Under the pieces are notes generated by a model that worked only from the letters and a program-made list of their open reading frames with translations, made no database searches and was not told the DNA's origin. DNA of 34,031 nt from an uncultured Desulfohalobiaceae bacterium (GTDB lineage Bacteria; Desulfobacterota; Desulfovibrionia; Desulfovibrionales; Desulfothermaceae). The first letter of the stretch is position 1; each line of letters begins with the position of its first letter. The stretch is from positions 1-34,031 of the forward strand of contig CAYNCR010000003.1 of assembly GCA_964395575.1 (NCBI GenBank). The letters are read 5' to 3'. Position numbers and translations under genes: made by a program. This document shows, one piece after another, positions 1 through 28,647 of the stretch.

Positions 1-343
1 CTTTGTTGGTACCGCTTGAGGTGGAATTGATTCCCTCCAGTCATCATTATTCACACCATTTGAATCCTGCTTCCCCGGAAGTGATTCGGGAATGTCGATG
101 AGGTGTTGCGTATCCCATCATGGGAAACCCGGGATGAAACCTGCGCTTCAGCGTCCACCCGCCTTCGCCTCGCGCCATTTTCATGCTTGGTTGTGCCCGG
201 GTCGGCCCGGGAATGACGGTTGTAATTTTGCTCTGGTGTGTCCGCGCTTGTTCTGGCATACGTGAGGCGGGACGGGGAGAACGGAACTTCACCCGCGAGG
301 CTTGCGAACCGGATAAGGCGGTATAAGTTGCCTGGAGGTGCCC

Positions 344-2108: not shown

Positions 2109-2498
<390 letters not shown>

Positions 2499-2531
2499 CA
2501 GGGCGTTGAAAATCTTCCAATTGCTTCGTTG

Positions 2532-2596
2532 TCCGGCACCTATTTGAGGTGACAAAAGGGCGTCTGATTGACTTGGCTTCACAAATAGGTGCCGGA
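2532..2596 (+). terminator. Long hairpin downstream of glnB: 15-bp perfect stem with 35-nt loop and no U-run
   Basis: TCCGGCACCTATTTG (2532-2546) is the exact reverse complement of CAAATAGGTGCCGGA (2582-2596). It starts 34 nt after the glnB stop. Its function as a terminator is uncertain because no T-tract follows. Confidence 0.35.
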
Positions 2597-2787
2597 TTCA
2601 AACTCTCATGGAGCTTGCTACGCAACGAGCTTGAACTTTTTTCGAGCCTGCCCCTTGAAATTTTGGGGCGCCCTGCCTGATAAGGACTTTCTCAGCAAAC
2701 CGCTAGGCCGCTGCATTCTTCTGTGCCGGGTCGACCCGCCACAGGAGCGGGAAAGCGGGTGAATCATCCATCCATTGCGGTACGTCT

Positions 2788-7285: not shown

Positions 7286-7325
7286 GCAGAAGCCGCGGCG
7301 ATGATCCATTGCCGCGGCTTTCTGC
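7286..7325 (+). terminator. Terminator-like hairpin after glnA
   Basis: GCAGAAGCCGCGGC pairs with GCCGCGGCTTTCTGC, giving 14 bp with one bulged T and an 11-nt loop. It starts 24 nt after the glnA stop. The U-tract is weak. Confidence 0.6.
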
Positions 7326-7494
7326 CTTGTGCCAGAGGCAGAGGACAGATCCCGGACGCCGGATATCAGGCACCGGATATCAAGCCTCTGAGGCCGCCTT
7401 CCATTTCAAGGGGGCCGATACAGAGTTGGCAATCCGCCTCCCGCGCAGCTTTTGCAGCAATCATCAGTCTACCGGTTGCGATACGAGGTCGACC

Positions 7495-10242
7495 ATGACC
7501 ACGGCCAGAATGGAGCACATCACCGAGATCCGGCTCATCCGGAACGCATCGACCTACTTGAGCCGGCTGCTCAACCGGCAGGAATACATGGACTGGCTCT
7601 GGAGCCGGAACAACCTCATGCGCCGCTATCCCCTGACCGAGCTTTACCGGGATCTGAGCGACGCCGCCGAGGCCTGCGCTTCCTACAGGGAGCTGGCCAG
7701 CTGCTTCCGGCAGTTCAAGCAGCGCCATTTCCTGCGCATCGGAGGCCGCGATCTCCTCGGCCTTGCGGACTTTTCCGAGACTACGCGCCAATTGAGCGAG
7801 CTGGCAGGAGTGGCCCTGCAAGTGGGCCTGAAGACATTTACGGAACGGCCCGATTTGTGGTGCGGCAATCGGGACCCAGAGGAGTTCGTCCGCAATCTGC
7901 GGGAGAACCCGGTGACCGTCATGGGTTTGGGCAAGCTGGGCGGCAGTGAGCTCAACTACGTCTCGGACGTGGATCTGGTTCTTTTTCGGCGCTTCTCCGG
8001 GGGTGACGGCGGCCACCGGAGCTTCTGCCAGGCGTTGTGCCGCCTGGTGGGGGAGCAGTTCGAGGGGGACAGGGTCTTTACAACGGACCTGCGGTTGCGG
8101 CCCATGGGCAAGGACGGAGAGTTGGTTCCGCCCATGGAGGCGGCTGCGGAGTACTACCTCAATTCCGGGAAGGCCTGGGAGCGACAGGCCCTGCTCAAGG
8201 CAAGGCCGTTTGCCGGGGACCGGGGTCTGGGACGCGCCTTCCTCCAGGAGGTAACCCCTTTTGTCTTCCGCCGGTTCATGGACTTTCAGGCACTGGAGGA
8301 GCTACGGGAAATGCGGGACCGCATTTTGGCCGAGCTCAAGCGCACGGAGCGAGACCTCTTCCAGGACGTGAAGCTGGGCCGCGGCGGAATACGGGAAATC
8401 GAGTTCACAGTGCAGTCCTTCCAGCTGATCTACGGCGGGCGCTACCGGGAGCTGGACGAGCCGAACACCCTGGCCTGCCTGGACAAGCTCCGAAAGCTGG
8501 AGCTCCTGCCGGAGGAGGTGGCTCTGCAGCTGCAGCAGGACTACCAGTTTCTGCGCAGGGTGGAGCACTGGCTGCAGCTGGACCAGAACCGCCAGACGCG
8601 GAGAATTCCCGATTCCGAGGCGGATCGGCGCAGGCTGGCCACCGCCCTCGGCTTCGGGGACAGGGTGCAGGCTTTCGCCGAGGAGCTCGAGGCCTGCGGA
8701 AACCGGGTGCACGAACACTTTACCGCCCTGTTCAGGTCAGGAGAGGAAAGAGAGGGCTCAGGAAGCAAGAGAGAGGAGACAGGAGAGACTGGAGAAAGGA
8801 CGAAGGATGGCCCAAGTGCGGCATCCCTCTCCGCCTACTCCCAGAGCCTGGAGCAGGCCCTGGCTGAATTCCCCGATCCGGTGCGGCAAACGGTCATCTC
8901 AGCGCTGGAGGACCTTTCAGGTGTGGACGGGGAGCTTTTCTCCAGGCTGATCAGCCGCATAGAGCGTTTTTTCCGGCAGGTGGCCTCCAGGCCCGGTCTG
9001 GCCAAAATGCTTGAAGCGGGCCCGCAGTGGCTGGATCAGGTGGTGCGGGGCACCCTCCGTTCGGGCATGGTGGCTTCCCTGCTGGCTCATCAGCCGGCGC
9101 TCGTGGAGGGCATTGCCTCCGCTGGCGGAGTGGGTCAGGGCTATGAGCAGTGGCGTCAGAGGGGGGAGAGCATACTCGCCGGCTGCCACGTTTTCGACGA
9201 GGCCATGGAGTGGATTCGCCGCCTGCGGAATGAGCGGCTGCTCATGCTGGCCCTGGCGGAGCAGGAGGAAGAGATCTCCGCGGAGCAAGTCAGCGGGGAG
9301 CTTTCCGATCTCGCGGACTTCGTGATCCGGCACACCTACGAGTGGGTCCGTCTTCGACTGGGGCTGGCCGAGGACCTGCCCCTCGTGGTCATGGCCCTGG
9401 GCAAGCTGGGCAGCCGGGAGTTCGGCTATCTTTCCGATCTGGATCTCATGTTCGTGTACGATCCCTCAGGCGGGGAGCAGGAAATGATCCCGGAAAAAGT
9501 GGTGCGTCTGGCGCAGCGGCTCATGCGCATGCTCAGCACCCCGCTCCAGGAGGGGCCGGGCTATTCCGTGGACGCGGAGCTCCGGCCCAGCGGGAGCTAC
9601 GGTCCGTTGGCAGTGACCCGCAAGTCCTGGGAGGATTACTACACCAATCAGGCGGATATCTGGGAGATCCAGGCCCTGCTCCGTCTCCGGGCGGTGGCCG
9701 GAAACAGGGAATTGGGACAGGACCTGGAGGAGAAGGCCCGTTCCATTTGTGCCGCCCAGCGGGCAGAGGACAGCGTCTGGCCCAGGCTGTGCCATCTGCG
9801 GCAGCGCATAGAGACGGAACGGAGCCAGGACGGCCCGGAAACCGCGGATATTAAGCTGGGGTACGGGGGAGCGGCGGATCTGGAATTTCTGGTTCAGGGC
9901 GGCCAGCTGCTCGGTTGCGGCGGAGAGATTGCCCAGGGAGAGAGAAGCGTGCTTCAGCTGACGGAGCCTGTGCTGCGAGATCTCGGCTTTTCGGATGAGC
10001 GGGCACGGACCCTGCGGCGCATCCTTGCCACCTACAGGAGCCTGGAGCATCGCCTCCAGCTGGATGTCGGCCGCAGCTCGTCCACCGTCACGAAGCAACG
10101 CTTGAGCGCGCTGCAGCAGCTTGAGCTCTGGCCCCCGGATAGCGAGGAGCAGCAGGACCTGCGGAACTGGACCGATCTGACCCGTATGCGCCAGATGGTC
10201 AGGGGGTGCTGGAGTCCCTTCTGCGAGGAGGGTCCGGGTTAG
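7495..10242 (+). CDS. glnE: Bifunctional glutamine synthetase adenylyltransferase / adenylyl-removing enzyme
   Basis: ORF 7309..10242. Two tandem GlnE nucleotidyltransferase modules are present (GKLGGSELNYVSDVDLVLF and GKLGSREFGYLSDLDLMFVY). I chose the start at ATG 7495 (MTTARMEHI) because the upstream part of the ORF covers the glnA terminator. Confidence 0.88.
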   Translation: MTTARMEHITEIRLIRNASTYLSRLLNRQEYMDWLWSRNNLMRRYPLTELYRDLSDAAEACASYRELASCFRQFKQRHFLRIGGRDLLGLADFSETTRQLSELAGVALQVGLKTFTERPDLWCGNRDPEEFVRNLRENPVTVMGLGKLGGSELNYVSDVDLVLFRRFSGGDGGHRSFCQALCRLVGEQFEGDRVFTTDLRLRPMGKDGELVPPMEAAAEYYLNSGKAWERQALLKARPFAGDRGLGRAFLQEVTPFVFRRFMDFQALEELREMRDRILAELKRTERDLFQDVKLGRGGIREIEFTVQSFQLIYGGRYRELDEPNTLACLDKLRKLELLPEEVALQLQQDYQFLRRVEHWLQLDQNRQTRRIPDSEADRRRLATALGFGDRVQAFAEELEACGNRVHEHFTALFRSGEEREGSGSKREETGETGERTKDGPSAASLSAYSQSLEQALAEFPDPVRQTVISALEDLSGVDGELFSRLISRIERFFRQVASRPGLAKMLEAGPQWLDQVVRGTLRSGMVASLLAHQPALVEGIASAGGVGQGYEQWRQRGESILAGCHVFDEAMEWIRRLRNERLLMLALAEQEEEISAEQVSGELSDLADFVIRHTYEWVRLRLGLAEDLPLVVMALGKLGSREFGYLSDLDLMFVYDPSGGEQEMIPEKVVRLAQRLMRMLSTPLQEGPGYSVDAELRPSGSYGPLAVTRKSWEDYYTNQADIWEIQALLRLRAVAGNRELGQDLEEKARSICAAQRAEDSVWPRLCHLRQRIETERSQDGPETADIKLGYGGAADLEFLVQGGQLLGCGGEIAQGERSVLQLTEPVLRDLGFSDERARTLRRILATYRSLEHRLQLDVGRSSSTVTKQRLSALQQLELWPPDSEEQQDLRNWTDLTRMRQMVRGCWSPFCEEGPG

Positions 10243-10302
10243 GCCTTGAGCGAGACTTGCCCGAACGCGCTCTCTGTGTTGCAATTTTATTTTCCTTGAG
10301 TG

Positions 10303-10535
10303 GTAACTATTCAGCACTTTGCCGAACCGTAAGCCGACACGGGGTGTTTTGCCTCATGCAGCTCCGACTCTGGATTTTCTAACGTCCGGCACTCACTCTC
10401 CCAGAACCTTAGAGAATTTGGGCAAGCGTGAAGAAAGTGAGTGCCGGACGAAGAAAATCTGGCATCGTCTCCGCTGAAATGATTCAAAATACCCCGTGTC
10501 GGCTTACAATAGTTAGTGGAGTGGTGAATAGTTAC
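10303..10535. mobile_element. MITE-like nested-palindromic element, copy 1 (233 bp)
   Basis: Terminal inverted repeats are GTAACTATTCAGCAC and GTGGTGAATAGTTAC. A perfect 8-bp direct duplication CTTGAGTG flanks it at 10295-10302 and 10536-10543. Inner inverted-repeat tiers are GTAAGCCGACACGGGGT and CGTCCGGCACTCACT. A second copy lies at 23456-23686. Confidence 0.7.
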
Positions 10536-10650
10536 CTTGAGTGAATCATTTCTTAAAGGGGCCGTTGAAAGTCTTCGGCCCCTCCTTCGTGCCGCGAGCC
10601 GAGGCTCTATCTCCGCTTCGGATGCGAAGACCCCAAAAACAGGAGAACCT

Positions 10651-11940
10651 ATGGCCACAGTGCATTCGCGGCAAAGCGAGGACTTGCTTCTGAAAAATAC
10701 CCTCACCGGCCGCCGCGACCCCTTCAGACAGCGCCACGGAGACGGGGTTCGGCTGTTCACCTGCGGCCCCTCCGTGTATAATCGTCCCCATATCGGCAAC
10801 TATCGCACCTACCTTGTCCAGGACATCCTCCAGCGCTATTTGGAGTACCGTGGGCATCACGTCCTGCGCGTGCTCAACTTCACCGACGTTGAGGACAAGG
10901 CGGTCGACGAGGCCAAGCGGCGCGGCCTGAGCCTGTTCGATCTGACCCGGGACAACGAGGCCATCTTCCTGCACGAGGCGATGCGCCTGGGCATCCGGCT
11001 TCCCGGCATCATCCCCAGATCCTCGACCAGTGTGGACCAGGCGGTGGAGCTGATCCGCATCCTGCTGGACAAGGGACACGCCTATCGCTACCGGGGAAGC
11101 GTATTCTTCGATCCCTTGACCTTGCCGGACTTCGGCAAGCTCTTCGGCCTGGATCTCTCCAAGTGGCCCCAAAAACGGATCCGTTTCTGGCGGGATACTT
11201 ATCCGGGCAAACGCTGGAATCTGGGAGATTTTATCCTCTGGCACGCGGCCAAGCGGGGCGAGCCGGAGGCCTTTGTCTGGGATACCGCCCTTGGGCGGGG
11301 GCGCCCCGCCTGGAACATCCAGGATCCGGCCATGATCAGCCAGCATCTGGGGTACGAGCTGGACATCTGCTGCGGCGGGGTGGACAATCTCTACCGTCAC
11401 CACGACTACAACATTGCGGTCATGGAGGCGGTTTCCGGGAAGGAGCTGGCTCCGTGCTGGCTGCACGGAGAGCACCTGCTGGTTCGCGGGGCCAAGATGT
11501 CCAAGAGCAAGGGCAATATCATCTATCCCGAGGATATGTTCCGGGATGGGGTGAGCCCGCATGAGCTGCGCTTCTATCTGCTGTCCGGGCACTACCGCAA
11601 AACAATGAGCCTGACCGATCGGCGTCTGGAAAGGGCACGGGAGCGATTGGACCGCATCCGGGGCCGCATCCGCCTGCTGCGGGAAGGGGCGAAAGATGCC
11701 GCTCCGGATGCTGATGCGGAAGCCTTTGAAGACGTAAGAAAGATGCGACTGCTGGCGGAGCAATACCTGGATGACGATCTCGATGTGCCGGGAGCTGTGG
11801 AGAGTTTGGAGCGGGATCTGTCCGAGCTCGTCCGGAAGCGGGAGCAAAACAGCCTTTCTTCCGGCGCTTGCGCCCTGGCTCTGAAAGAGCTGGGACGGAT
11901 CGACAGGGTGCTCGGGTTCCTGGGAGCGGCAGATGGATGA
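10651..11940 (+). CDS. cysS: Cysteine--tRNA ligase family protein (divergent active site, lacks C-terminal anticodon-binding domain)
   Basis: ORF 10537..11940, read from ATG 10651 with AGGAGA at 10641-10646. It has the class I aaRS motifs PHIGN and KMSKSKGN and is colinear with E. coli CysRS (CGPSVY, DFILWH, GRPAWNIQDPAM, RHHDYNIA, RFYLLSGHYR, DDDLDVPGA). The symbol is given at family level only; see findings. Confidence 0.75.
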   Translation: MATVHSRQSEDLLLKNTLTGRRDPFRQRHGDGVRLFTCGPSVYNRPHIGNYRTYLVQDILQRYLEYRGHHVLRVLNFTDVEDKAVDEAKRRGLSLFDLTRDNEAIFLHEAMRLGIRLPGIIPRSSTSVDQAVELIRILLDKGHAYRYRGSVFFDPLTLPDFGKLFGLDLSKWPQKRIRFWRDTYPGKRWNLGDFILWHAAKRGEPEAFVWDTALGRGRPAWNIQDPAMISQHLGYELDICCGGVDNLYRHHDYNIAVMEAVSGKELAPCWLHGEHLLVRGAKMSKSKGNIIYPEDMFRDGVSPHELRFYLLSGHYRKTMSLTDRRLERARERLDRIRGRIRLLREGAKDAAPDADAEAFEDVRKMRLLAEQYLDDDLDVPGAVESLERDLSELVRKREQNSLSSGACALALKELGRIDRVLGFLGAADG

Positions 11941-16340: not shown

Positions 16341-16498
16341 CATGCTGATTGCGTATTCGATATATTCGCCCGTCTCAGCGGACGTCGCAAAGCGGGAATA
16401 CTCTGTAACGCCGCGGCGCCGCGCCCCTGCGCGAGTCAATTTTTTGCTTCCGGGCCTGGAAGGGGCAATGTGTTGCCCCGAGGCATCCCCAGTGTTTT

Positions 16499-16815
16499 CT
16501 AGTCACCCGAGCCGATGAAAGGCAGCTCCTTGTCCACGCGGAAGTGGACCAGGAACTTTGCCTCGGCGTGGATCCGGTCGTCGTCCGGATAGATCCGCCT
16601 GCGCAGGAGGCGGATCTTCTCCTCGTCGACCTTGGTCAGAAAGAGGCGTTTGCCCTTGTATCACACCCCTGCCTCCAGGAAGAGATAGGCCGCGCGGGGG
16701 TTGGACTTCAGATTGTGACGAGAGAGCCGGTCGCGCATGATCAGGGCGACGGTGCCGTCCTCTACATCTTTTGGGTTTGGAGGGTTGATCAAAGCATCCC
16801 AAAAGCTTACATTGT
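16499..16815 (-). pseudogene. 5'-truncated, nonsense-containing paralogue of the PNPOx-like gene at 17672-18055
   Basis: About 90% nucleotide identity by hand to the 3' 270 nt of the intact gene, in the same frame and with a conserved C-terminus (VDKELPFIGSGD*). There is an in-frame TGA at 16661-16663 where the intact copy has GGA (Gly), and a 12-nt indel. The N-terminal roughly 35 codons are replaced by the vapB region. Confidence 0.7.
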
Positions 16816-17506: not shown

Positions 17507-17671
17507 TAAAACGGATGGCTGGGTAGCCGTCGCTCTCGAGGCGCAAAAGATTTTTTCCAACGTTCGTATGAATCTTCTGGAAGCAACGCCGCAACAGGAA
17601 ATCAACATTTTATCAGGGGCTGCGAAAACAAAAACCACGTGCACTCGCAACCCCTTTAGCTGGGATTTTCT

Positions 17672-18055
17672 TTACTCCCCGGACCCGATCAGGGGCAGCT
17701 CCTTGTCCACGCGGAAGTGGACCAGGAACTTCGCCTCGGCGTGAATCCGGTCGTCATCCGGATAGGTGCGTCTGCGCAGGAGGCTGATCTTCTCCTCGTC
17801 CTGCTCCTCGTCGACCTTGGTCAGATACAGGCGCTTGCCCTTGTATCCCACTCCCTCCTCCATGAAGAGATAGGCCGCGCGGGAATTGGACTTCAGGTTC
17901 TGATGGGAGAGGCGGTCGCGCATGATCAGGGCAATGGTGCCGTCCTCCATGACATGGGGCCTGGCGTAGATAGCGCTGTCCACATTGCCCTCGCTGTCCG
18001 CGGTGGAGAGCACGCCCACACCCTTGGTGTTCTCGAAGTAGTTTTTGAGATCCAT
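17672..18055 (-). CDS. Pyridoxamine 5'-phosphate oxidase-like FMN-binding protein
   Basis: ORF 17672..18124. I prefer ATG 18055 (MDLKNYFENTKGVGVLSTAD), which has GGAGAG upstream. It has the small split-barrel PNPOx-family pattern. Confidence 0.7.
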   Translation of the reverse strand: MDLKNYFENTKGVGVLSTADSEGNVDSAIYARPHVMEDGTIALIMRDRLSHQNLKSNSRAAYLFMEEGVGYKGKRLYLTKVDEEQDEEKISLLRRRTYPDDDRIHAEAKFLVHFRVDKELPLIGSGE

Positions 18056-19296: not shown

Positions 19297-19366
19297 GATT
19301 GGCTCCATTTGCTGCGTCGATAAGCGACGTCTGCTCCCTTGGGAACAAGAGAGCTGTTTGAATGTT

Positions 19367-19383
19367 GATAATAATTATTATTC
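19367..19383. promoter_or_regulatory. Fur-family (Fur/PerR/Zur)-like operator candidate upstream of msrAB
   Basis: GATAATAATTATTATTC contains a perfect 14-bp palindrome, ATAATAATTATTAT (19368-19381), built of NATWAT-type hexamers. It lies about 70 nt upstream of the msrAB start. Confidence 0.35.
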
Positions 19384-22891: not shown

Positions 22892-23383
22892 TTACAGCCA
22901 GACCTCGCTGATCTGCTGGAAATTGGTGACGCTCACCGCGCGGGTGAGATCCACCCGGAAGAGGGCGGACTGGGGGCTTTTGACAAAATCCTCCAGCCGG
23001 GGATTTGCTTGAGTGAAAGCTGCTTCCCATTCTTTGCGCTGGGAAGCGCCCAGGATCTCCACGGCCTTGCCCTCCAGGGTCACCGCAGTACCCCGATCCA
23101 GATCCTGTTTCAGGGCGGGGGCGTCCAGGGCCATCAGGGAAACTGCAGGATTGTGGCGCATGGCCTCGTGCTTCGCGGTTTCCTTGGGAGTGGCCAGGGC
23201 CAGGGAGCACTCCGCGAAGGCGAGGACGAAGCTCATCAGGTTGCAGGCGGGTGCGGAATTGCTGCACGTGGCCAGAATCAGGGTTTTTTGCGCCCCCAGG
23301 AACTCCCAGAGCCAGGCGAGGAAGGCCTCGCGTTCCTGCTGGCTTACTTCGTGTTTTCGGGGCTGGAGGGGGAGGTCCGGCAT
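22892..23383 (-). CDS. PNPOx-like FMN-binding family protein (putative)
   Basis: 163-aa ORF, first gene of the phr-yyaL transcription unit. The split-barrel-like pattern is TLILATCS...PACNLMSFV...LEGKAVEI. The family assignment is tentative. Confidence 0.55.
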   Translation of the reverse strand: MPDLPLQPRKHEVSQQEREAFLAWLWEFLGAQKTLILATCSNSAPACNLMSFVLAFAECSLALATPKETAKHEAMRHNPAVSLMALDAPALKQDLDRGTAVTLEGKAVEILGASQRKEWEAAFTQANPRLEDFVKSPQSALFRVDLTRAVSVTNFQQISEVWL

Positions 23384-23413: not shown

Positions 23414-23455
23414 TCTTCAAGTTGCTGTGTTCGTTCACAAATTCAAACGCTTCTC

Positions 23456-23686
23456 GTAACTGTTCACCACCCCACTCATCATTGTAAGCCGACACGGGGT
23501 ATTTTGAATCATTTCAGCGGAGCCTGAGTGGTTTTCTTCGTCCGGCACTCACTTTCCCAGAAGCATAGAGAATTTGGGCAAGCGTAAAGAAAGTGAGTGC
23601 CGGACGTTAGAAAATCCAGAGTTGGAGCTGCATGAGGCAAAATGCCCCGTGTCGGCTTACGGTCCGGCAAGGTGGTGAATAGTTAC
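23456..23686. mobile_element. MITE-like nested-palindromic element, copy 2 (231 bp; arms inverted relative to copy 1)
   Basis: Terminal inverted repeats are GTAACTGTTCACCACC and GGTGGTGAATAGTTAC. The flanking 8-mers are CGCTTCTC (23448-23455) and CGTTTCTC (23687-23694). The inner inverted-repeat tiers are the same as in copy 1. Confidence 0.7.
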
Positions 23687-23716
23687 CGTTTCTCTTCAGC
23701 CTTGTTGAACAAGTCG

Positions 23717-24571
23717 TCACAGAAACTCGCGCATGATACGCTCCACGTTGTCCATATCCCGTTGTTGGGCGTACAGGGGCTCTTTTTCCAGGAAGGGATA
23801 GTAGGAGCGCAAGGGACGTCTGTGCTCGCTCTTATAGAGCACGCCCACGGGGATGGAGTCCCCCCATTCCATGCATCGCTGCATGGCCGCGTGCCAGTCC
23901 CCCGGGTCGTAGCCCGTCTCCAGCTCGTAGCAGCGCTGTTTGTACCAGGCGAAGGTGTTTACCCGGTTGAAGGAGACGCACTGTTGCAGGACGTCCACCA
24001 GGGCGATCCCGGTGTGGCTCATCGCCTGCCGGATGGTGTCCGCGAGCAGGTCCGGCATCCCGGTAAAGCCCCGGGCCACGAATCCGGCTCCCATGGTTAG
24101 GGCCATGGCGGTCGGCGGAAAGGGATCGCTGGGCATCCCCCGCGGCTGGGCCTTGGTCACGTGGCCCGCGGCGCTGGTGGGACTGGCCTGGCCCTTGGTC
24201 AGGCCGTAGATCTGGTTGTCGTGGACGAGCATGGTGAGGTCGATGTTGCGGCGCAGGGCTGCCAGGAAGTGGTTGCCGCCCTCGCCGTAAGAGCATCCGT
24301 CCCCGCTCTGGACCACGACCCGCAGGTCGGGATTGGCCAGCTTGGCCCCTGTTGCGACGGGAAGGGCGCGGCCGTGCAGGCCATTGAAGAGATTGCAGCG
24401 CATGTAGTGGGGCGATTTGGCCGCCTGACCGATACCGGAGACAAAAAGCGCCTGGTGCGGGGCGATTTCGCTGTCCGTCAGGGCCTGCTTGACCGCCTTG
24501 AGAATGGCGAAGTTCCCGCAGCCCGGACACCAGGCCGTTTCGAACTCGCCGAAATCTTCCGATGATACCAT
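23717..24571 (-). CDS. korB: 2-oxoacid:ferredoxin oxidoreductase, beta (TPP-binding) subunit
   Basis: 284 aa. Motifs are WCPGCGNFAILKAV and GDGCSYGEGGNHF (TPP motif). Confidence 0.88.
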   Translation of the reverse strand: MVSSEDFGEFETAWCPGCGNFAILKAVKQALTDSEIAPHQALFVSGIGQAAKSPHYMRCNLFNGLHGRALPVATGAKLANPDLRVVVQSGDGCSYGEGGNHFLAALRRNIDLTMLVHDNQIYGLTKGQASPTSAAGHVTKAQPRGMPSDPFPPTAMALTMGAGFVARGFTGMPDLLADTIRQAMSHTGIALVDVLQQCVSFNRVNTFAWYKQRCYELETGYDPGDWHAAMQRCMEWGDSIPVGVLYKSEHRRPLRSYYPFLEKEPLYAQQRDMDNVERIMREFL

Positions 24572-26278: not shown

Positions 26279-26424
26279 GGTTTCCTCGCTGCGTTTCCTA
26301 GCGCGGTATCACTTGTGATGAGAGTAAACACATCTCTATTCGAATATGATACGGCAGGCGCTTAGCGTGTGTAAACCCCGGGGCAGGCTGATTTGTTCTC
26401 GTAAGAATAAACCGCCAAGTTTGT

Positions 26425-26449
26425 TGTCCCCACGCTCTGCGTGGGGACA
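26425..26449. repeat. REP-like palindrome, copy A
   Basis: TGTCCCCACGC-TCT-GCGTGGGGACA, with an 11-bp stem. Confidence 0.6.
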
Positions 26450-26499
26450 TGTCAGGGACGTTCCGCATCCAGAATGACCGCGGGAGTGGTCGGAGCACG

Positions 26500-26520
26500 T
26501 TCCCACGCAGAGCGTGGGAA
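26500..26520. repeat. REP-like palindrome, copy B (opposite loop orientation)
   Basis: TTCCCACGC-AGA-GCGTGGGAA. It lies 50 bp from copy A, giving a BIME-like inverted pair. Confidence 0.6.
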
Positions 26521-26633
26521 GGATAATCTATTTTGGGGTGGGAATGTCGGTTTTCCGGAGACAGGCGCGGCGGCACGGCAACGGTTTCCGTGCCTGGAGC
26601 GCGTTCTTGGAGGGGAGCTAGGCTGTTTCGGGA

Positions 26634-28501: not shown

Positions 28502-28610
28502 AAGAGAATCACAAGTATAAAGTAGAAAGTTGAAAGAGTCGGGGAAAAAAGGAGGTTACCTCTTCACGGCTGCAAGTCAAAGAGAAGGGAACAGTTATCC
28601 AGGCTCATAT

Positions 28611-28635
28611 TGTCCCCACGCTCTGCGTAGGGATA
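28611..28635. repeat. REP-like palindrome, copy C
   Basis: TGTCCCCACGC-TCT-GCGTAGGGATA. Its left flank resembles copy A and its right flank (GGATAAT) resembles copy B. Confidence 0.55.
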
Positions 28636-28647
28636 ATTAACCTTGCG

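What the first reader, a model, noticed from the sequence alone, without database searches (positions are those of the whole stretch)
10295..10543. Nested-palindromic ~232-bp MITE-like element with 8-bp target duplication (two copies in the window)
The non-coding segment 10303-10535 recurs, with its arms inverted, at 23456-23686. The arms are about 90% identical by hand alignment.

- The ends are inverted repeats: GTAACTATTCAGCAC and GTGGTGAATAGTTAC.
- Copy 1 is bracketed by a perfect direct 8-mer, CTTGAGTG (10295-10302 and 10536-10543).
- Copy 2 is bracketed by CGCTTCTC and CGTTTCTC (7 of 8 identical).
- Two more inverted-repeat tiers lie inside: GTAAGCCGACACGGGGT/ACCCCGTGTCGGCTTAC and CGTCCGGCACTCACT/AGTGAGTGCCGGACG. 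The whole unit can therefore fold into a roughly 100-bp imperfect hairpin.

Terminal inverted repeats plus a target-site duplication are the signature of a transposase-mobilised miniature element. No transposase with matching ends lies in the window. I do not recognise the sequence as a named family (ERIC, Correia, RUP, BOX, REP/BIME).
Basis: seen in the sequence. Interest (0 to 1): 0.7.

Follow-up and report, generated by a model that had tools for sequence, protein, structure and literature searches.

The report
Hairpin-shaped miniature transposon (MITE) family
The two ~232-bp hairpin-forming repeats are copies of a previously undescribed miniature non-coding transposon that has jumped many times in uncultured salt-loving sulfate-reducer relatives (Desulfohalobiaceae), and its ends match those of a known insertion-sequence group, so it is real but a fairly ordinary kind of mobile DNA.

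Summary
W1 (10303-10535) and W2 (23456-23686) are two copies of a dispersed, non-coding element.

- **Ends:** 15-bp terminal inverted repeats, GTAACTATTCA(G/C)CAC, and 8-bp target-site duplications.
- **Copy number:** dozens of copies in two Desulfohalobiaceae MAGs and more than 120 hits in JGI metagenomes, many at contig ends.
- **Duplications:** of 33 complete copies with both flanks, 14 have a perfect 8/8 duplication and 5 have 7/8.
- **Empty sites:** orthologous glnE-cysS spacers in relatives lack W1 and carry a single CTTGAGCG. Conversely, the window is empty at 19362-19369, where a relative carries a copy.
- **Family of the ends:** they are nearly identical to those of single-ORF IS66-family (ISBst12-group) insertion sequences. 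For example, Geobacillus ISGst1 has GTAACTATTCAGCC / GTAACTATTCACCCC and an 8-bp duplication.
- **Parent:** no transposase-bearing parent was found in 1.47 Mb of related DNA.

Three points were not in the finding. The central loop is flipped relative to the arms between W1 and W2, and both orientations are common. The centre is modular, and its CCGGCAC hairpin also occurs in other repeat families. The second-tier stem has at least 7 sequence variants, each mirrored on both arms.

Verdict: a new MITE family of a known kind, of moderate interest.

The parts
10295..10302 (.). Left copy of the W1 target-site duplication, CTTGAGTG
   Evidence: Relatives have a single CTTGAGCG at this site.
10303..10535 (+). 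W1, a complete class-A copy (233 bp) in L-to-R orientation with the loop in 'flip' orientation. It lies 60 nt after the glnE stop and 115 nt before the cysS ATG at 10651.
10303..10317 (+). W1 left terminal inverted repeat, GTAACTATTCAGCAC
   Evidence: It matches ISGst1 IRL GTAACTATTCAGCC.
10329..10344 (+). W1 tier-2 stem, left half, GTAAGCCGACACGGGG. It pairs with 10492-10507.
10383..10450 (+). W1 tier-3 hairpin module. The stems are 10383-10397 and 10436-10450 (CGTCCGGCACTCACT). The loop is 10398-10435.
   Evidence: (D4).
10492..10507 (-). W1 tier-2 stem, right half
10521..10535 (-). W1 right terminal inverted repeat. Read inward from the end it is GTAACTATTCACCAC.
   Evidence: It matches ISGst1 IRR GTAACTATTCACCCC.
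10536..10543 (.). Right copy of the W1 target-site duplication, CTTGAGTG
23448..23455 (.). W2 flanking 8-mer CGCTTCTC, one half of a 7/8 duplication
23456..23686 (-). W2, a complete class-A copy (231 bp) with its L end at 23686 and the loop in 'flop' orientation. It lies between the stop of the 2-oxoacid:ferredoxin oxidoreductase beta gene (23717) and the start of the PNPOx-like gene (23383). Its terminal repeats are 23456-23470 and 23672-23686, its tier-2 stems 23484-23499 and 23645-23660, and its tier-3 module 23539-23606.
   Evidence: The same insertion is present in relative L345.
23687..23694 (.). W2 flanking 8-mer CGTTTCTC
19362..19369 (.). Empty target site, ATGTTGAT. The CAYFSD Desulfohalobiaceae MAG carries a copy of the element here, flanked by TTTTTGAC and TTTTTGAT.

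Best explanation
W1 and W2 are copies of a non-autonomous DNA transposon, a MITE about 230 bp long with variants from 56 to 373 bp. It has spread in a group of uncultured Desulfohalobiaceae.

**Proposed mechanism.** A DDE transposase of the single-ORF ISBst12 group of the IS66 family, supplied in trans, would bind the 15-16-bp terminal inverted repeats GTAACTATTCA(G/C)CAC. It would insert the element with staggered cuts 8 bp apart, and repair of those cuts produces the 8-bp target duplication.

**What is shown here:**
- the element is dispersed and multi-copy;
- it has terminal inverted repeats and 8-bp duplications;
- sites are occupied in some genomes and empty in relatives;
- it has no coding capacity;
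- its ends are near-identical to those of ISBst12-group insertion sequences.

**What is inferred:**
- that such a transposase actually moves it, because no cognate gene was found;
- that the element is still active.

**Internal structure.** The interior is a three-tier imperfect palindrome. The innermost tier is an exchangeable hairpin module whose loop has been inverted in place. The most likely cause is recombination or replication template switching between its perfect 15-18-bp stems (inferred). The second-tier stems evolve in concert on both arms. This points to a constraint on hairpin or cruciform structure, or to repeated arm-to-arm correction (inferred).
For: **Copy number.**
- The core 16-mer hits at least 28 stretches of MAG JAZKRN01 and at least 14 of MAG CAYFSD01, many at contig ends.

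**Target duplication.**
- Of 33 complete copies with both flanks, 14 have 8/8, 5 have 7/8 and 5 have 6/8.

**Empty sites.**
- The glnE-cysS spacer of L097/L098/L099 reads ..CCTTCCTTGAGCGATGC.. with one 8-mer. Its length is 167 bp, which equals 408 - 233 - 8.
- The window is empty at 19362, where MAG CAYFSD01 is occupied.
- L097 lacks the L045 copy.
- L097 and L098 differ by one insertion.

**Age.**
- W2, with a 7/8 duplication, is shared with a relative 96% identical in the neighbouring protein.
- W1, with an 8/8 duplication, is absent from a relative whose CysS is 93% identical.

**Ends compared with known insertion sequences.**
- pHTA426 IS, 1635 bp, with Pfam DDE_Tnp_IS66 and zf-IS66: repeats GTATCTATTCAGCCC / GTAACTATTCAGCCC and duplication GACGAGTT on both sides.
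- ISGst1: GTAACTATTCAGCC / GTAACTATTCACCCC and duplication AAAAGAAC on both sides. It shows the same G/C difference between left and right ends as the MITE.
- ISDge4: GTAACTGCTCAGCA with an 8-bp duplication (PMC12898284).

**No alternative identity.**
- Rfam gave no family at gathering threshold and only sub-threshold generic hairpins at E <= 1.
- No coding potential; the window's GC is 61.5% and the element's is 49%.
Against: - No transposase-bearing element with these ends was found. There is none in the window.
- There is none among complete copies, where the largest distance between terminal repeats is 373 bp.
- tblastn with an ISBst12-group transposase against all 1.47 Mb of fetched related DNA found nothing.
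- About a quarter of the complete copies lack a recognisable duplication.
- Complementarity extending about 100 bp inward, with compensatory change, is more than a DDE transposase is known to need.
Confidence: 0.82

Rival explanations
1. The element is a structured non-coding RNA gene or cis-regulatory RNA. The long hairpin would be the functional product, and the copies would be paralogous genes.
For: - The fold is very stable (z = -12.8).
- Stems covary: at least 7 tier-2 haplotypes are mirrored on both arms, and there are 33 double-sided changes against 19.9 +/- 2.9 in shuffles.
- Orientation relative to neighbouring genes is biased (p = 0.006).
Against: - No Rfam family matches.
- Copies lie in unrelated intergenic contexts, with 8-bp duplications.
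- Clean empty sites exist in close relatives.
- The loop occurs in both orientations, which would change the RNA.
- Deletion derivatives of 56-70 bp keep only the ends.
Confidence: 0.03
2. The element is a REP/REPIN- or PATE-like palindromic element moved as single-stranded DNA by a Y1/HUH transposase (RAYT or IS200/IS605 TnpA) that recognises the hairpins rather than the ends.
For: - The architecture is a nested hairpin, with structure conserved while sequence drifts.
- A small CCGGCAC hairpin module is shared with other repeat families and replaces native hairpins there.
- Orientation is biased.
- A TnpB-like fragment lies in a relative.
Against: From established knowledge, HUH-mobilised elements lack terminal inverted repeats and do not make target duplications. 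Here, conserved terminal repeats and 8-bp duplications of variable sequence are the rule. The ends also match a DDE-transposase IS group. No RAYT or TnpA gene was seen.
Confidence: 0.05
3. The inner hairpin is a site-specific invertible switch (inverton), and the flip and flop states reflect phase variation by an invertase.
For: - The loop is exactly inverted between perfect 15-18-bp inverted repeats.
- Among 37 centres, 22 are flip and 15 are flop.
- W1 and its nearest relative by arms, L045 (2.3% divergence), differ in orientation.
Against: - The invertible segment is only about 30-38 bp, far shorter than known invertons (own knowledge).
- No invertase gene is linked.
- Orientation mostly follows loop sequence type, which suggests rare events and not rapid switching.
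- Two loci were seen in two assemblies, and both had the same orientation in each (L098/L230; W2/L345).
Confidence: 0.03
4. The two window copies arose by segmental duplication or by chance, and the element is not mobile.
For: None beyond the presence of two copies.
Against: There are dozens to hundreds of copies with different flanks, target duplications and empty sites. The chance expectation for the core motifs is 0.2-0.4 matches.
Confidence: 0.01

Closest known systems
ISBst12 group of the IS66 family (single-ORF DDE insertion sequences such as ISGst1, the pHTA426 copy and ISDge4)
   Same: - The terminal 14-15 nt are nearly the same: GTAACTATTCAGCC / GTAACTATTCACCCC in ISGst1, against GTAACTATTCAGCAC / GTAACTATTCACCAC here.
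- The G/C difference between left and right ends at position 12 is shared.
- Both make an 8-bp target duplication.
   Different: - The element is about 230 bp with no ORF, whereas the insertion sequences are about 1.6 kb and encode a 450-485-aa DDE_Tnp_IS66 transposase.
- Its interior is a long imperfect palindrome that is absent from the insertion sequences examined.
- The hosts are Desulfohalobiaceae, not Bacillota or Deinococcota.
- No cognate IS was found.
Bacterial MITEs in general (for example Correia, ERIC, RUP, Nezha)
   Same: - It is short, non-coding, AT-richer than the genome and intergenic.
- It has terminal inverted repeats and a fixed-length target duplication.
- It is high in copy number and breaks assemblies.
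- Internal deletion and insertion variants exist.
- It can fold into a hairpin.
   Different: - There is no sequence relation to those families (own knowledge; not tested against a library).
- The terminal repeats and duplication are of the IS66/ISBst12 type.
- It has three nested stem tiers, an exchangeable central module and loop inversion.
REPINs / BIMEs (REP doublets mobilised by RAYTs)
   Same: Conserved inverted arms flank a more variable spacer. The units are hairpin-forming, abundant and intergenic.
   Different: REPINs have no terminal inverted repeats of the DDE type and no target duplication (own knowledge). This element has both.

Membership tests
MITE (non-autonomous DNA transposon) | Short, with no coding capacity | tested here: met
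   Copies are 56-373 bp. There is no credible ORF, and the element's GC is 49% against 61.5% for the window.
MITE (non-autonomous DNA transposon) | Terminal inverted repeats conserved across copies | tested here: met
   GTAACTATTCA(G/C)CAC is present at both ends of all aligned copies.
MITE (non-autonomous DNA transposon) | Target-site duplication of fixed length and variable sequence | tested here: met
   The duplication is 8 bp. Of 33 complete copies with both flanks, 14 are perfect and 5 are 7/8.
MITE (non-autonomous DNA transposon) | Many dispersed copies | tested here: met
MITE (non-autonomous DNA transposon) | Insertion polymorphism, with empty sites holding one copy of the target | tested here: met
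   W1 site in L097-L103. Window 19362 against MAG CAYFSD01. L097 against L098.
MITE (non-autonomous DNA transposon) | An autonomous partner with the same ends in the same genome | tested here: inconclusive
   None was found in the window or in 1.47 Mb of related DNA. Complete genomes were not available and the scans were truncated.
IS66 family, ISBst12 group (as source of the ends) | Inverted repeats starting GTAA and matching the group's termini | tested here: met
   The ends match the pHTA426 IS right repeat at 14 of 15 positions and ISGst1 at 13 of 14 (left) and 13 of 15 (right). ISDge4 matches at 12 of 14 (PMC12898284).
IS66 family, ISBst12 group (as source of the ends) | 8-bp target duplication | tested here: met
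   The MITE makes 8 bp. The reference insertion sequences have GACGAGTT, AAAAGAAC and CCTCGATG.
IS66 family, ISBst12 group (as an IS member) | Encodes a DDE_Tnp_IS66 transposase | tested here: not met
   There is no ORF in the element, so it is at most a derivative of this group and not a member IS. The reference transposase has PF03050 and PF13005.
REP / REPIN (RAYT-mobilised) | No target duplication, and a linked RAYT gene | tested here: not met
   8-bp duplications are present. No RAYT was seen in the window.
Any curated RNA family (Rfam 15) | Match at the family's gathering score | tested here: not met
   There were 0 matches in the window. Only sub-threshold microRNA-precursor hairpins appeared at E <= 1.

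The most novel reading that the evidence does not exclude
The nested hairpin may be more than a by-product.

The innermost CCGGCAC...GTGCCGG hairpin (about 62-72 nt) could be an independent, very small mobile or recombining module. It would replace the apex of existing hairpins in at least three unrelated repeat families of these genomes, and it would flip in place.

The concerted evolution of the tier-2 stems, together with the orientation bias relative to genes, could mean that the whole MITE passes through, or is selected as, a folded single-stranded or cruciform form. That would be a hairpin-dependent step not known for IS66-type DDE transposition.
Probability: 0.15. Interest if true: 0.65.

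Novelty: new member of a known kind. Interest (0 to 1): 0.35.

Why it matters
**Practical value.**
- The family explains many contig breaks in Desulfohalobiaceae MAGs and metagenomes.
- Its insertion polymorphisms can serve as strain markers.
- It is a ready-made substrate for studying the poorly characterised single-ORF branch of IS66 transposases. The conserved ends define the minimal recognition sequence.

**Biological interest.**
- It is a clear example of a MITE whose interior keeps its palindromic structure through compensatory change.
- Its centre is swapped and inverted, which bears on how palindromic repeats evolve in bacterial genomes.

It does not open a new class of system.

Tried and rejected
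- **Rfam:** scans at gathering and E-value thresholds found nothing meaningful.
- **Partial copies:** I checked whether they (L022, L027, L063) were ends of a full-length IS. They are internal-deletion derivatives next to ordinary genes.
- **Viral-contig scan with the terminal repeat:** chance hits only.
- **Search for a parent IS:** I looked for pairs of terminal repeats more than 400 bp apart, for multi-copy segments over 500 bp in the fetched loci, and ran tblastn with an ISBst12-group transposase. All were negative.
- **Exact look-up of the PNPOx-like protein:** not on record.
- **Nested-insertion idea:** I considered that tier 2 (GTAAGCC..., like a classic IS66 end) marks an insertion of one MITE inside another. 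I rejected it because no duplication flanks tier 2.
- **Sigma-54-like motif in the right arm (CTGGCATCGTCTCCGCT, 10459):** it is not conserved in W2, so I did not pursue it.
- **Terminator targeting:** several sites follow T-runs, but there is no consistent pattern.
- **Covariation count on alignment A7:** it is blunted because MAFFT shifts one subclass by one column, and the slide -1 control shows this. I replaced it with a per-copy stem comparison.
- **Han et al. 2001 on IS66:** not held in the library.

Full report
**1. Observation**

- The repeat finder pairs W1 arm 10302-10400 with 23589-23687, and 10469-10535 with 23456-23522. Both pairs are 93% complementary.
- It aligns the centre 10383-10450 with 23539-23606 in direct orientation at 94%. 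A three-way alignment shows the same thing.
- So the two copies are inverted relative to each other, except for the 38-nt central loop. That loop is flipped relative to the arms.
- The 15-nt ends occur 4 times against 0.23 expected. The tier-2 16-mer occurs 4 times against 0.36 expected. The tier-3 15-mer occurs 4 times.
- The flanking 8-mers are CTTGAGTG on both sides of W1, and CGCTTCTC / CGTTTCTC around W2.
- As single-stranded DNA, W1 folds into one hairpin of -69 kcal/mol, z = -12.8.

**2. Context**

Pfam scans place W1 between glnE (7309-10242) and cysS, whose ATG is at 10651. They place W2 between the stop of a 2-oxoacid:ferredoxin oxidoreductase beta subunit (23717-24571, minus strand) and the start of a PNPOx-like gene (22892-23383, minus strand). 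No transposase lies in the window. The window is a whole 34,031-bp metagenome contig. Rfam gives no family at gathering threshold.

**3. Copies elsewhere**

- The tier-2 16-mer hits at least 28 stretches of Desulfohalobiaceae MAG JAZKRN01 and at least 14 of MAG CAYFSD01. Very often the hit is within 12-80 nt of a contig end.
- An arm motif hits more than 120 metagenome stretches, almost all from JGI 3300001136 and 3300027580, again mostly at contig ends.
- Complete copies range from 56 to 373 bp.

**4. Mobility**

- Of 33 complete copies with both flanks, 14 have a perfect 8-bp duplication, 5 have 7/8 and 5 have 6/8. The duplicated sequences differ between sites and are AT-rich.
- The orthologous glnE-cysS spacer in relatives was fetched by way of CysS homologues. 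It lacks the element.
  - In L097/L098/L099 (CysS 93% identical) the spacer is 167 bp, which equals 408 - 233 - 8. It reads ...TGCAATTTATCCTTCCTTGAGCGATGCATTCC..., with a single copy of the 8-mer.
  - L100 and L103 are empty too.
- Conversely, MAG CAYFSD01 carries a copy flanked by TTTTTGAC / TTTTTGAT where the window has only ATGTTGAT, at 19362.
- Population variants L097 and L098 differ by one extra copy. L097 also lacks the L045 copy.
- W2 is present at the same site and in the same orientation in L345, a relative 96% identical in the neighbouring protein. In relatives at 84% identity the locus is rearranged.
- W2 (7/8 duplication) therefore looks older than W1 (8/8).

**5. Which transposase family**

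GTAA ends with an 8-bp duplication suggested IS66. The literature gives ISDge4, of the ISBst12 group, with ends GTGACTACTCAGCA / GTAACTGCTCAGCA, an 8-bp duplication and a single 449-aa transposase (PMC12898284). I then examined real elements.

| Element | Size | Inverted repeats | Target duplication |
|---|---|---|---|
| G. kaustophilus pHTA426 IS (L344:14107-15741), one ORF with DDE_Tnp_IS66 and zf-IS66 | 1635 bp | GTATCTATTCAGCCC / GTAACTATTCAGCCC | GACGAGTT on both sides |
| ISGst1 on pGS18 (L347:416-2028) | 1613 bp | GTAACTATTCAGCC / GTAACTATTCACCCC | AAAAGAAC on both sides |
| Clostridium estertheticum copy | 1738 bp | GTTACTGCTCAGCC / GTTACTACTCACGC | 7/8 |

- The MITE's left end is GTAACTATTCAGCAC and its right end is GTAACTATTCACCAC. 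They match these termini, including the left/right G/C difference at position 12.
- The cognate IS was not found. No pair of terminal repeats is more than 373 bp apart. There are no multi-copy long segments. There is no tblastn hit in 1.47 Mb.

**6. Anatomy beyond the finding**

(a) *The centre is modular*.
- Class A (about 233 bp) has the stem CGTCCGGCACTCAC.
- Class B (about 305 bp) has the stem CGCTCGCCACGTGG and a longer loop.
- Other classes share only the terminal repeats and a few arm motifs.
- Near-identical arms carry different centres. For example, L085 is class B and W2 and L094 are class A.

(b) *The loop occurs in both orientations.*
- Among 37 class-A centres attached to a left arm, 22 are flip and 15 are flop.
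- There are two loop sequence types. One is always flip. The other is mostly flop, but W1 is flip.
- W1's arms are closest to those of L045 (2.3% divergence), which is flop. At least one inversion therefore happened in place.

(c) *The tier-2 stem covaries.*
- It exists in at least 7 haplotypes. These include GCCGACAC, ATGTTCGC, ATGTTCAC, ATGGTGAC, CTTCAACT and GCCTGCAC, and each is mirrored on both arms.
- The tool count gives 33 double-sided changes against 19.9 +/- 2.9 in shuffles, with 0 of 500 shuffles reaching the observed value.
- The asymmetric spacers between tiers are inherited unchanged. The pairing itself, or repeated arm-to-arm correction, is therefore being maintained.

(d) *The tier-3 hairpin is not private to this element.*
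- The CCGGCACTCACTTT...AAAGTGAGTGCCGG hairpin also sits in a second MITE-like family. That family has a copy at window 2496-2706.
- It also sits inside class-B centres, and as a short variant in a third repeat family, which the window's left edge (1-224) cuts.
- In each case it is present in some copies and absent in others.

**7. Possible effects on genes**

- The right arm carries an outward sigma-70-like motif, TTCAAA-16-TACAAT. In both window copies it points at the downstream gene start.
- Across the family the opposite orientation prevails. The crude GC3-based gene finder reproduces the Pfam-supported genes of the window.
- With it, left ends face a gene start 62 times and a gene end 34 times. 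Right ends face a start 14 times and an end 23 times (Fisher p = 0.006 after removing duplicate loci).
- This is exploratory and needs proper annotation.

**8. Verdict**

- The element is a genuine MITE family with ends of the ISBst12 group of the IS66 family, and it is not described in the searchable literature.
- It is a new member of a known kind.
- The flipped loop, the exchangeable hairpin module and the concerted stem evolution are the parts worth a specialist's attention. They do not require a new class of mechanism, but they leave room for a hairpin-dependent step.

Noticed in passing
window 2496-2706 (minus strand), with the hairpin at 2532-2596: This is a copy of a second MITE-like repeat family ('MITE-X') between glnB and glnD. 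Its ends are CTAGCAG..GGCGTT..AAAA in inverted orientation. About 12 copies lie in related loci, for example L100:2254-2427. The window copy carries the TCCGGCACCTATTTG...CAAATAGGTGCCGGA hairpin module. It lacks the CCGGCACTCAC module that the copies aligned from related loci have (I18, 58, 60, 89).
   Followed up: partly
window 1-224 (contig edge): This is part of a third repeat family of about 335 nt. L075:1-206 is 95% identical, and there are at least 12 copies in related loci. The unit starts TTTTTGTATGAAAATGC and ends with the hairpin GCCCGGGTCGGCCCGGG followed by AATGAAGGTTGTAT. Some copies have a CCCGGCACTCATTC..GAATGAGTGCCGGG hairpin in place of a native hairpin. There is no Rfam match. 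Its identity is unknown; it could be a MITE, an IS end or a multi-copy RNA.
   Followed up: partly
related loci, e.g. L001:2999, L010:5386, L246:7158, L268:99, L331:124; window 10386-10447, 23542-23603, 2533-2595: A 62-72-nt hairpin unit has perfect CCGGCAC... stems and homologous but variable loops. It recurs in three different repeat families and nested inside class-B centres. In homologous copies it is present in some and absent in others. It may be an independent, very small mobile or recombining module.
   Followed up: partly
family-wide (177 de-duplicated element ends in the fetched loci): Orientation relative to neighbouring genes is biased. The left end faces a gene start 62 times and a gene end 34 times. 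The right end faces a start 14 times and an end 23 times (Fisher p = 0.006). Gene calls came from a crude GC3-based finder. Both window copies have the minority orientation.
   Followed up: partly
window 10483-10510 (+) and 23508-23481 (-): An outward-facing sigma-70-like motif, TTCAAA-16-TACAAT, lies in the right arm. It is conserved in most copies. In both window copies it points at the adjacent gene start, cysS for W1 and the PNPOx-like gene for W2.
   Followed up: no
window 10459-10475: A sigma-54-like spacing, CTGGCATCGTCTCCGCT (GG-N10-GC), lies in the right arm. It is conserved as CTGGCAgAGTCTCCGCT in most copies but is disrupted in W2.
   Followed up: no
window 26413-26529 and 28608-28647: Another palindromic repeat, TGTCCCCACGCTCTGCGTGGGGACA, occurs three times in intergenic DNA (I5, I6, I22). 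It looks REP-like.
   Followed up: no
window 16495-16762 and 17668-17947: Two segments of about 270 nt are 88% identical and lie about 1.18 kb apart (D1, D2). They are probably tandem paralogous genes.
   Followed up: no
L098:12989-13295 compared with L097:12989-13100: A truncated right-arm fragment of the element is present in both population variants. L098 and L099 have an additional complete copy of a divergent subclass inserted 8 nt away, and L097 lacks it.
   Followed up: yes
L103:4680-14195: In a relative whose CysS is 85% identical, cysS is followed by a TnpB-like fragment (a weak Cas12f1-like_TNB hit) and then type IV secretion / conjugation genes. The window's gene order is not kept there.
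   Followed up: no
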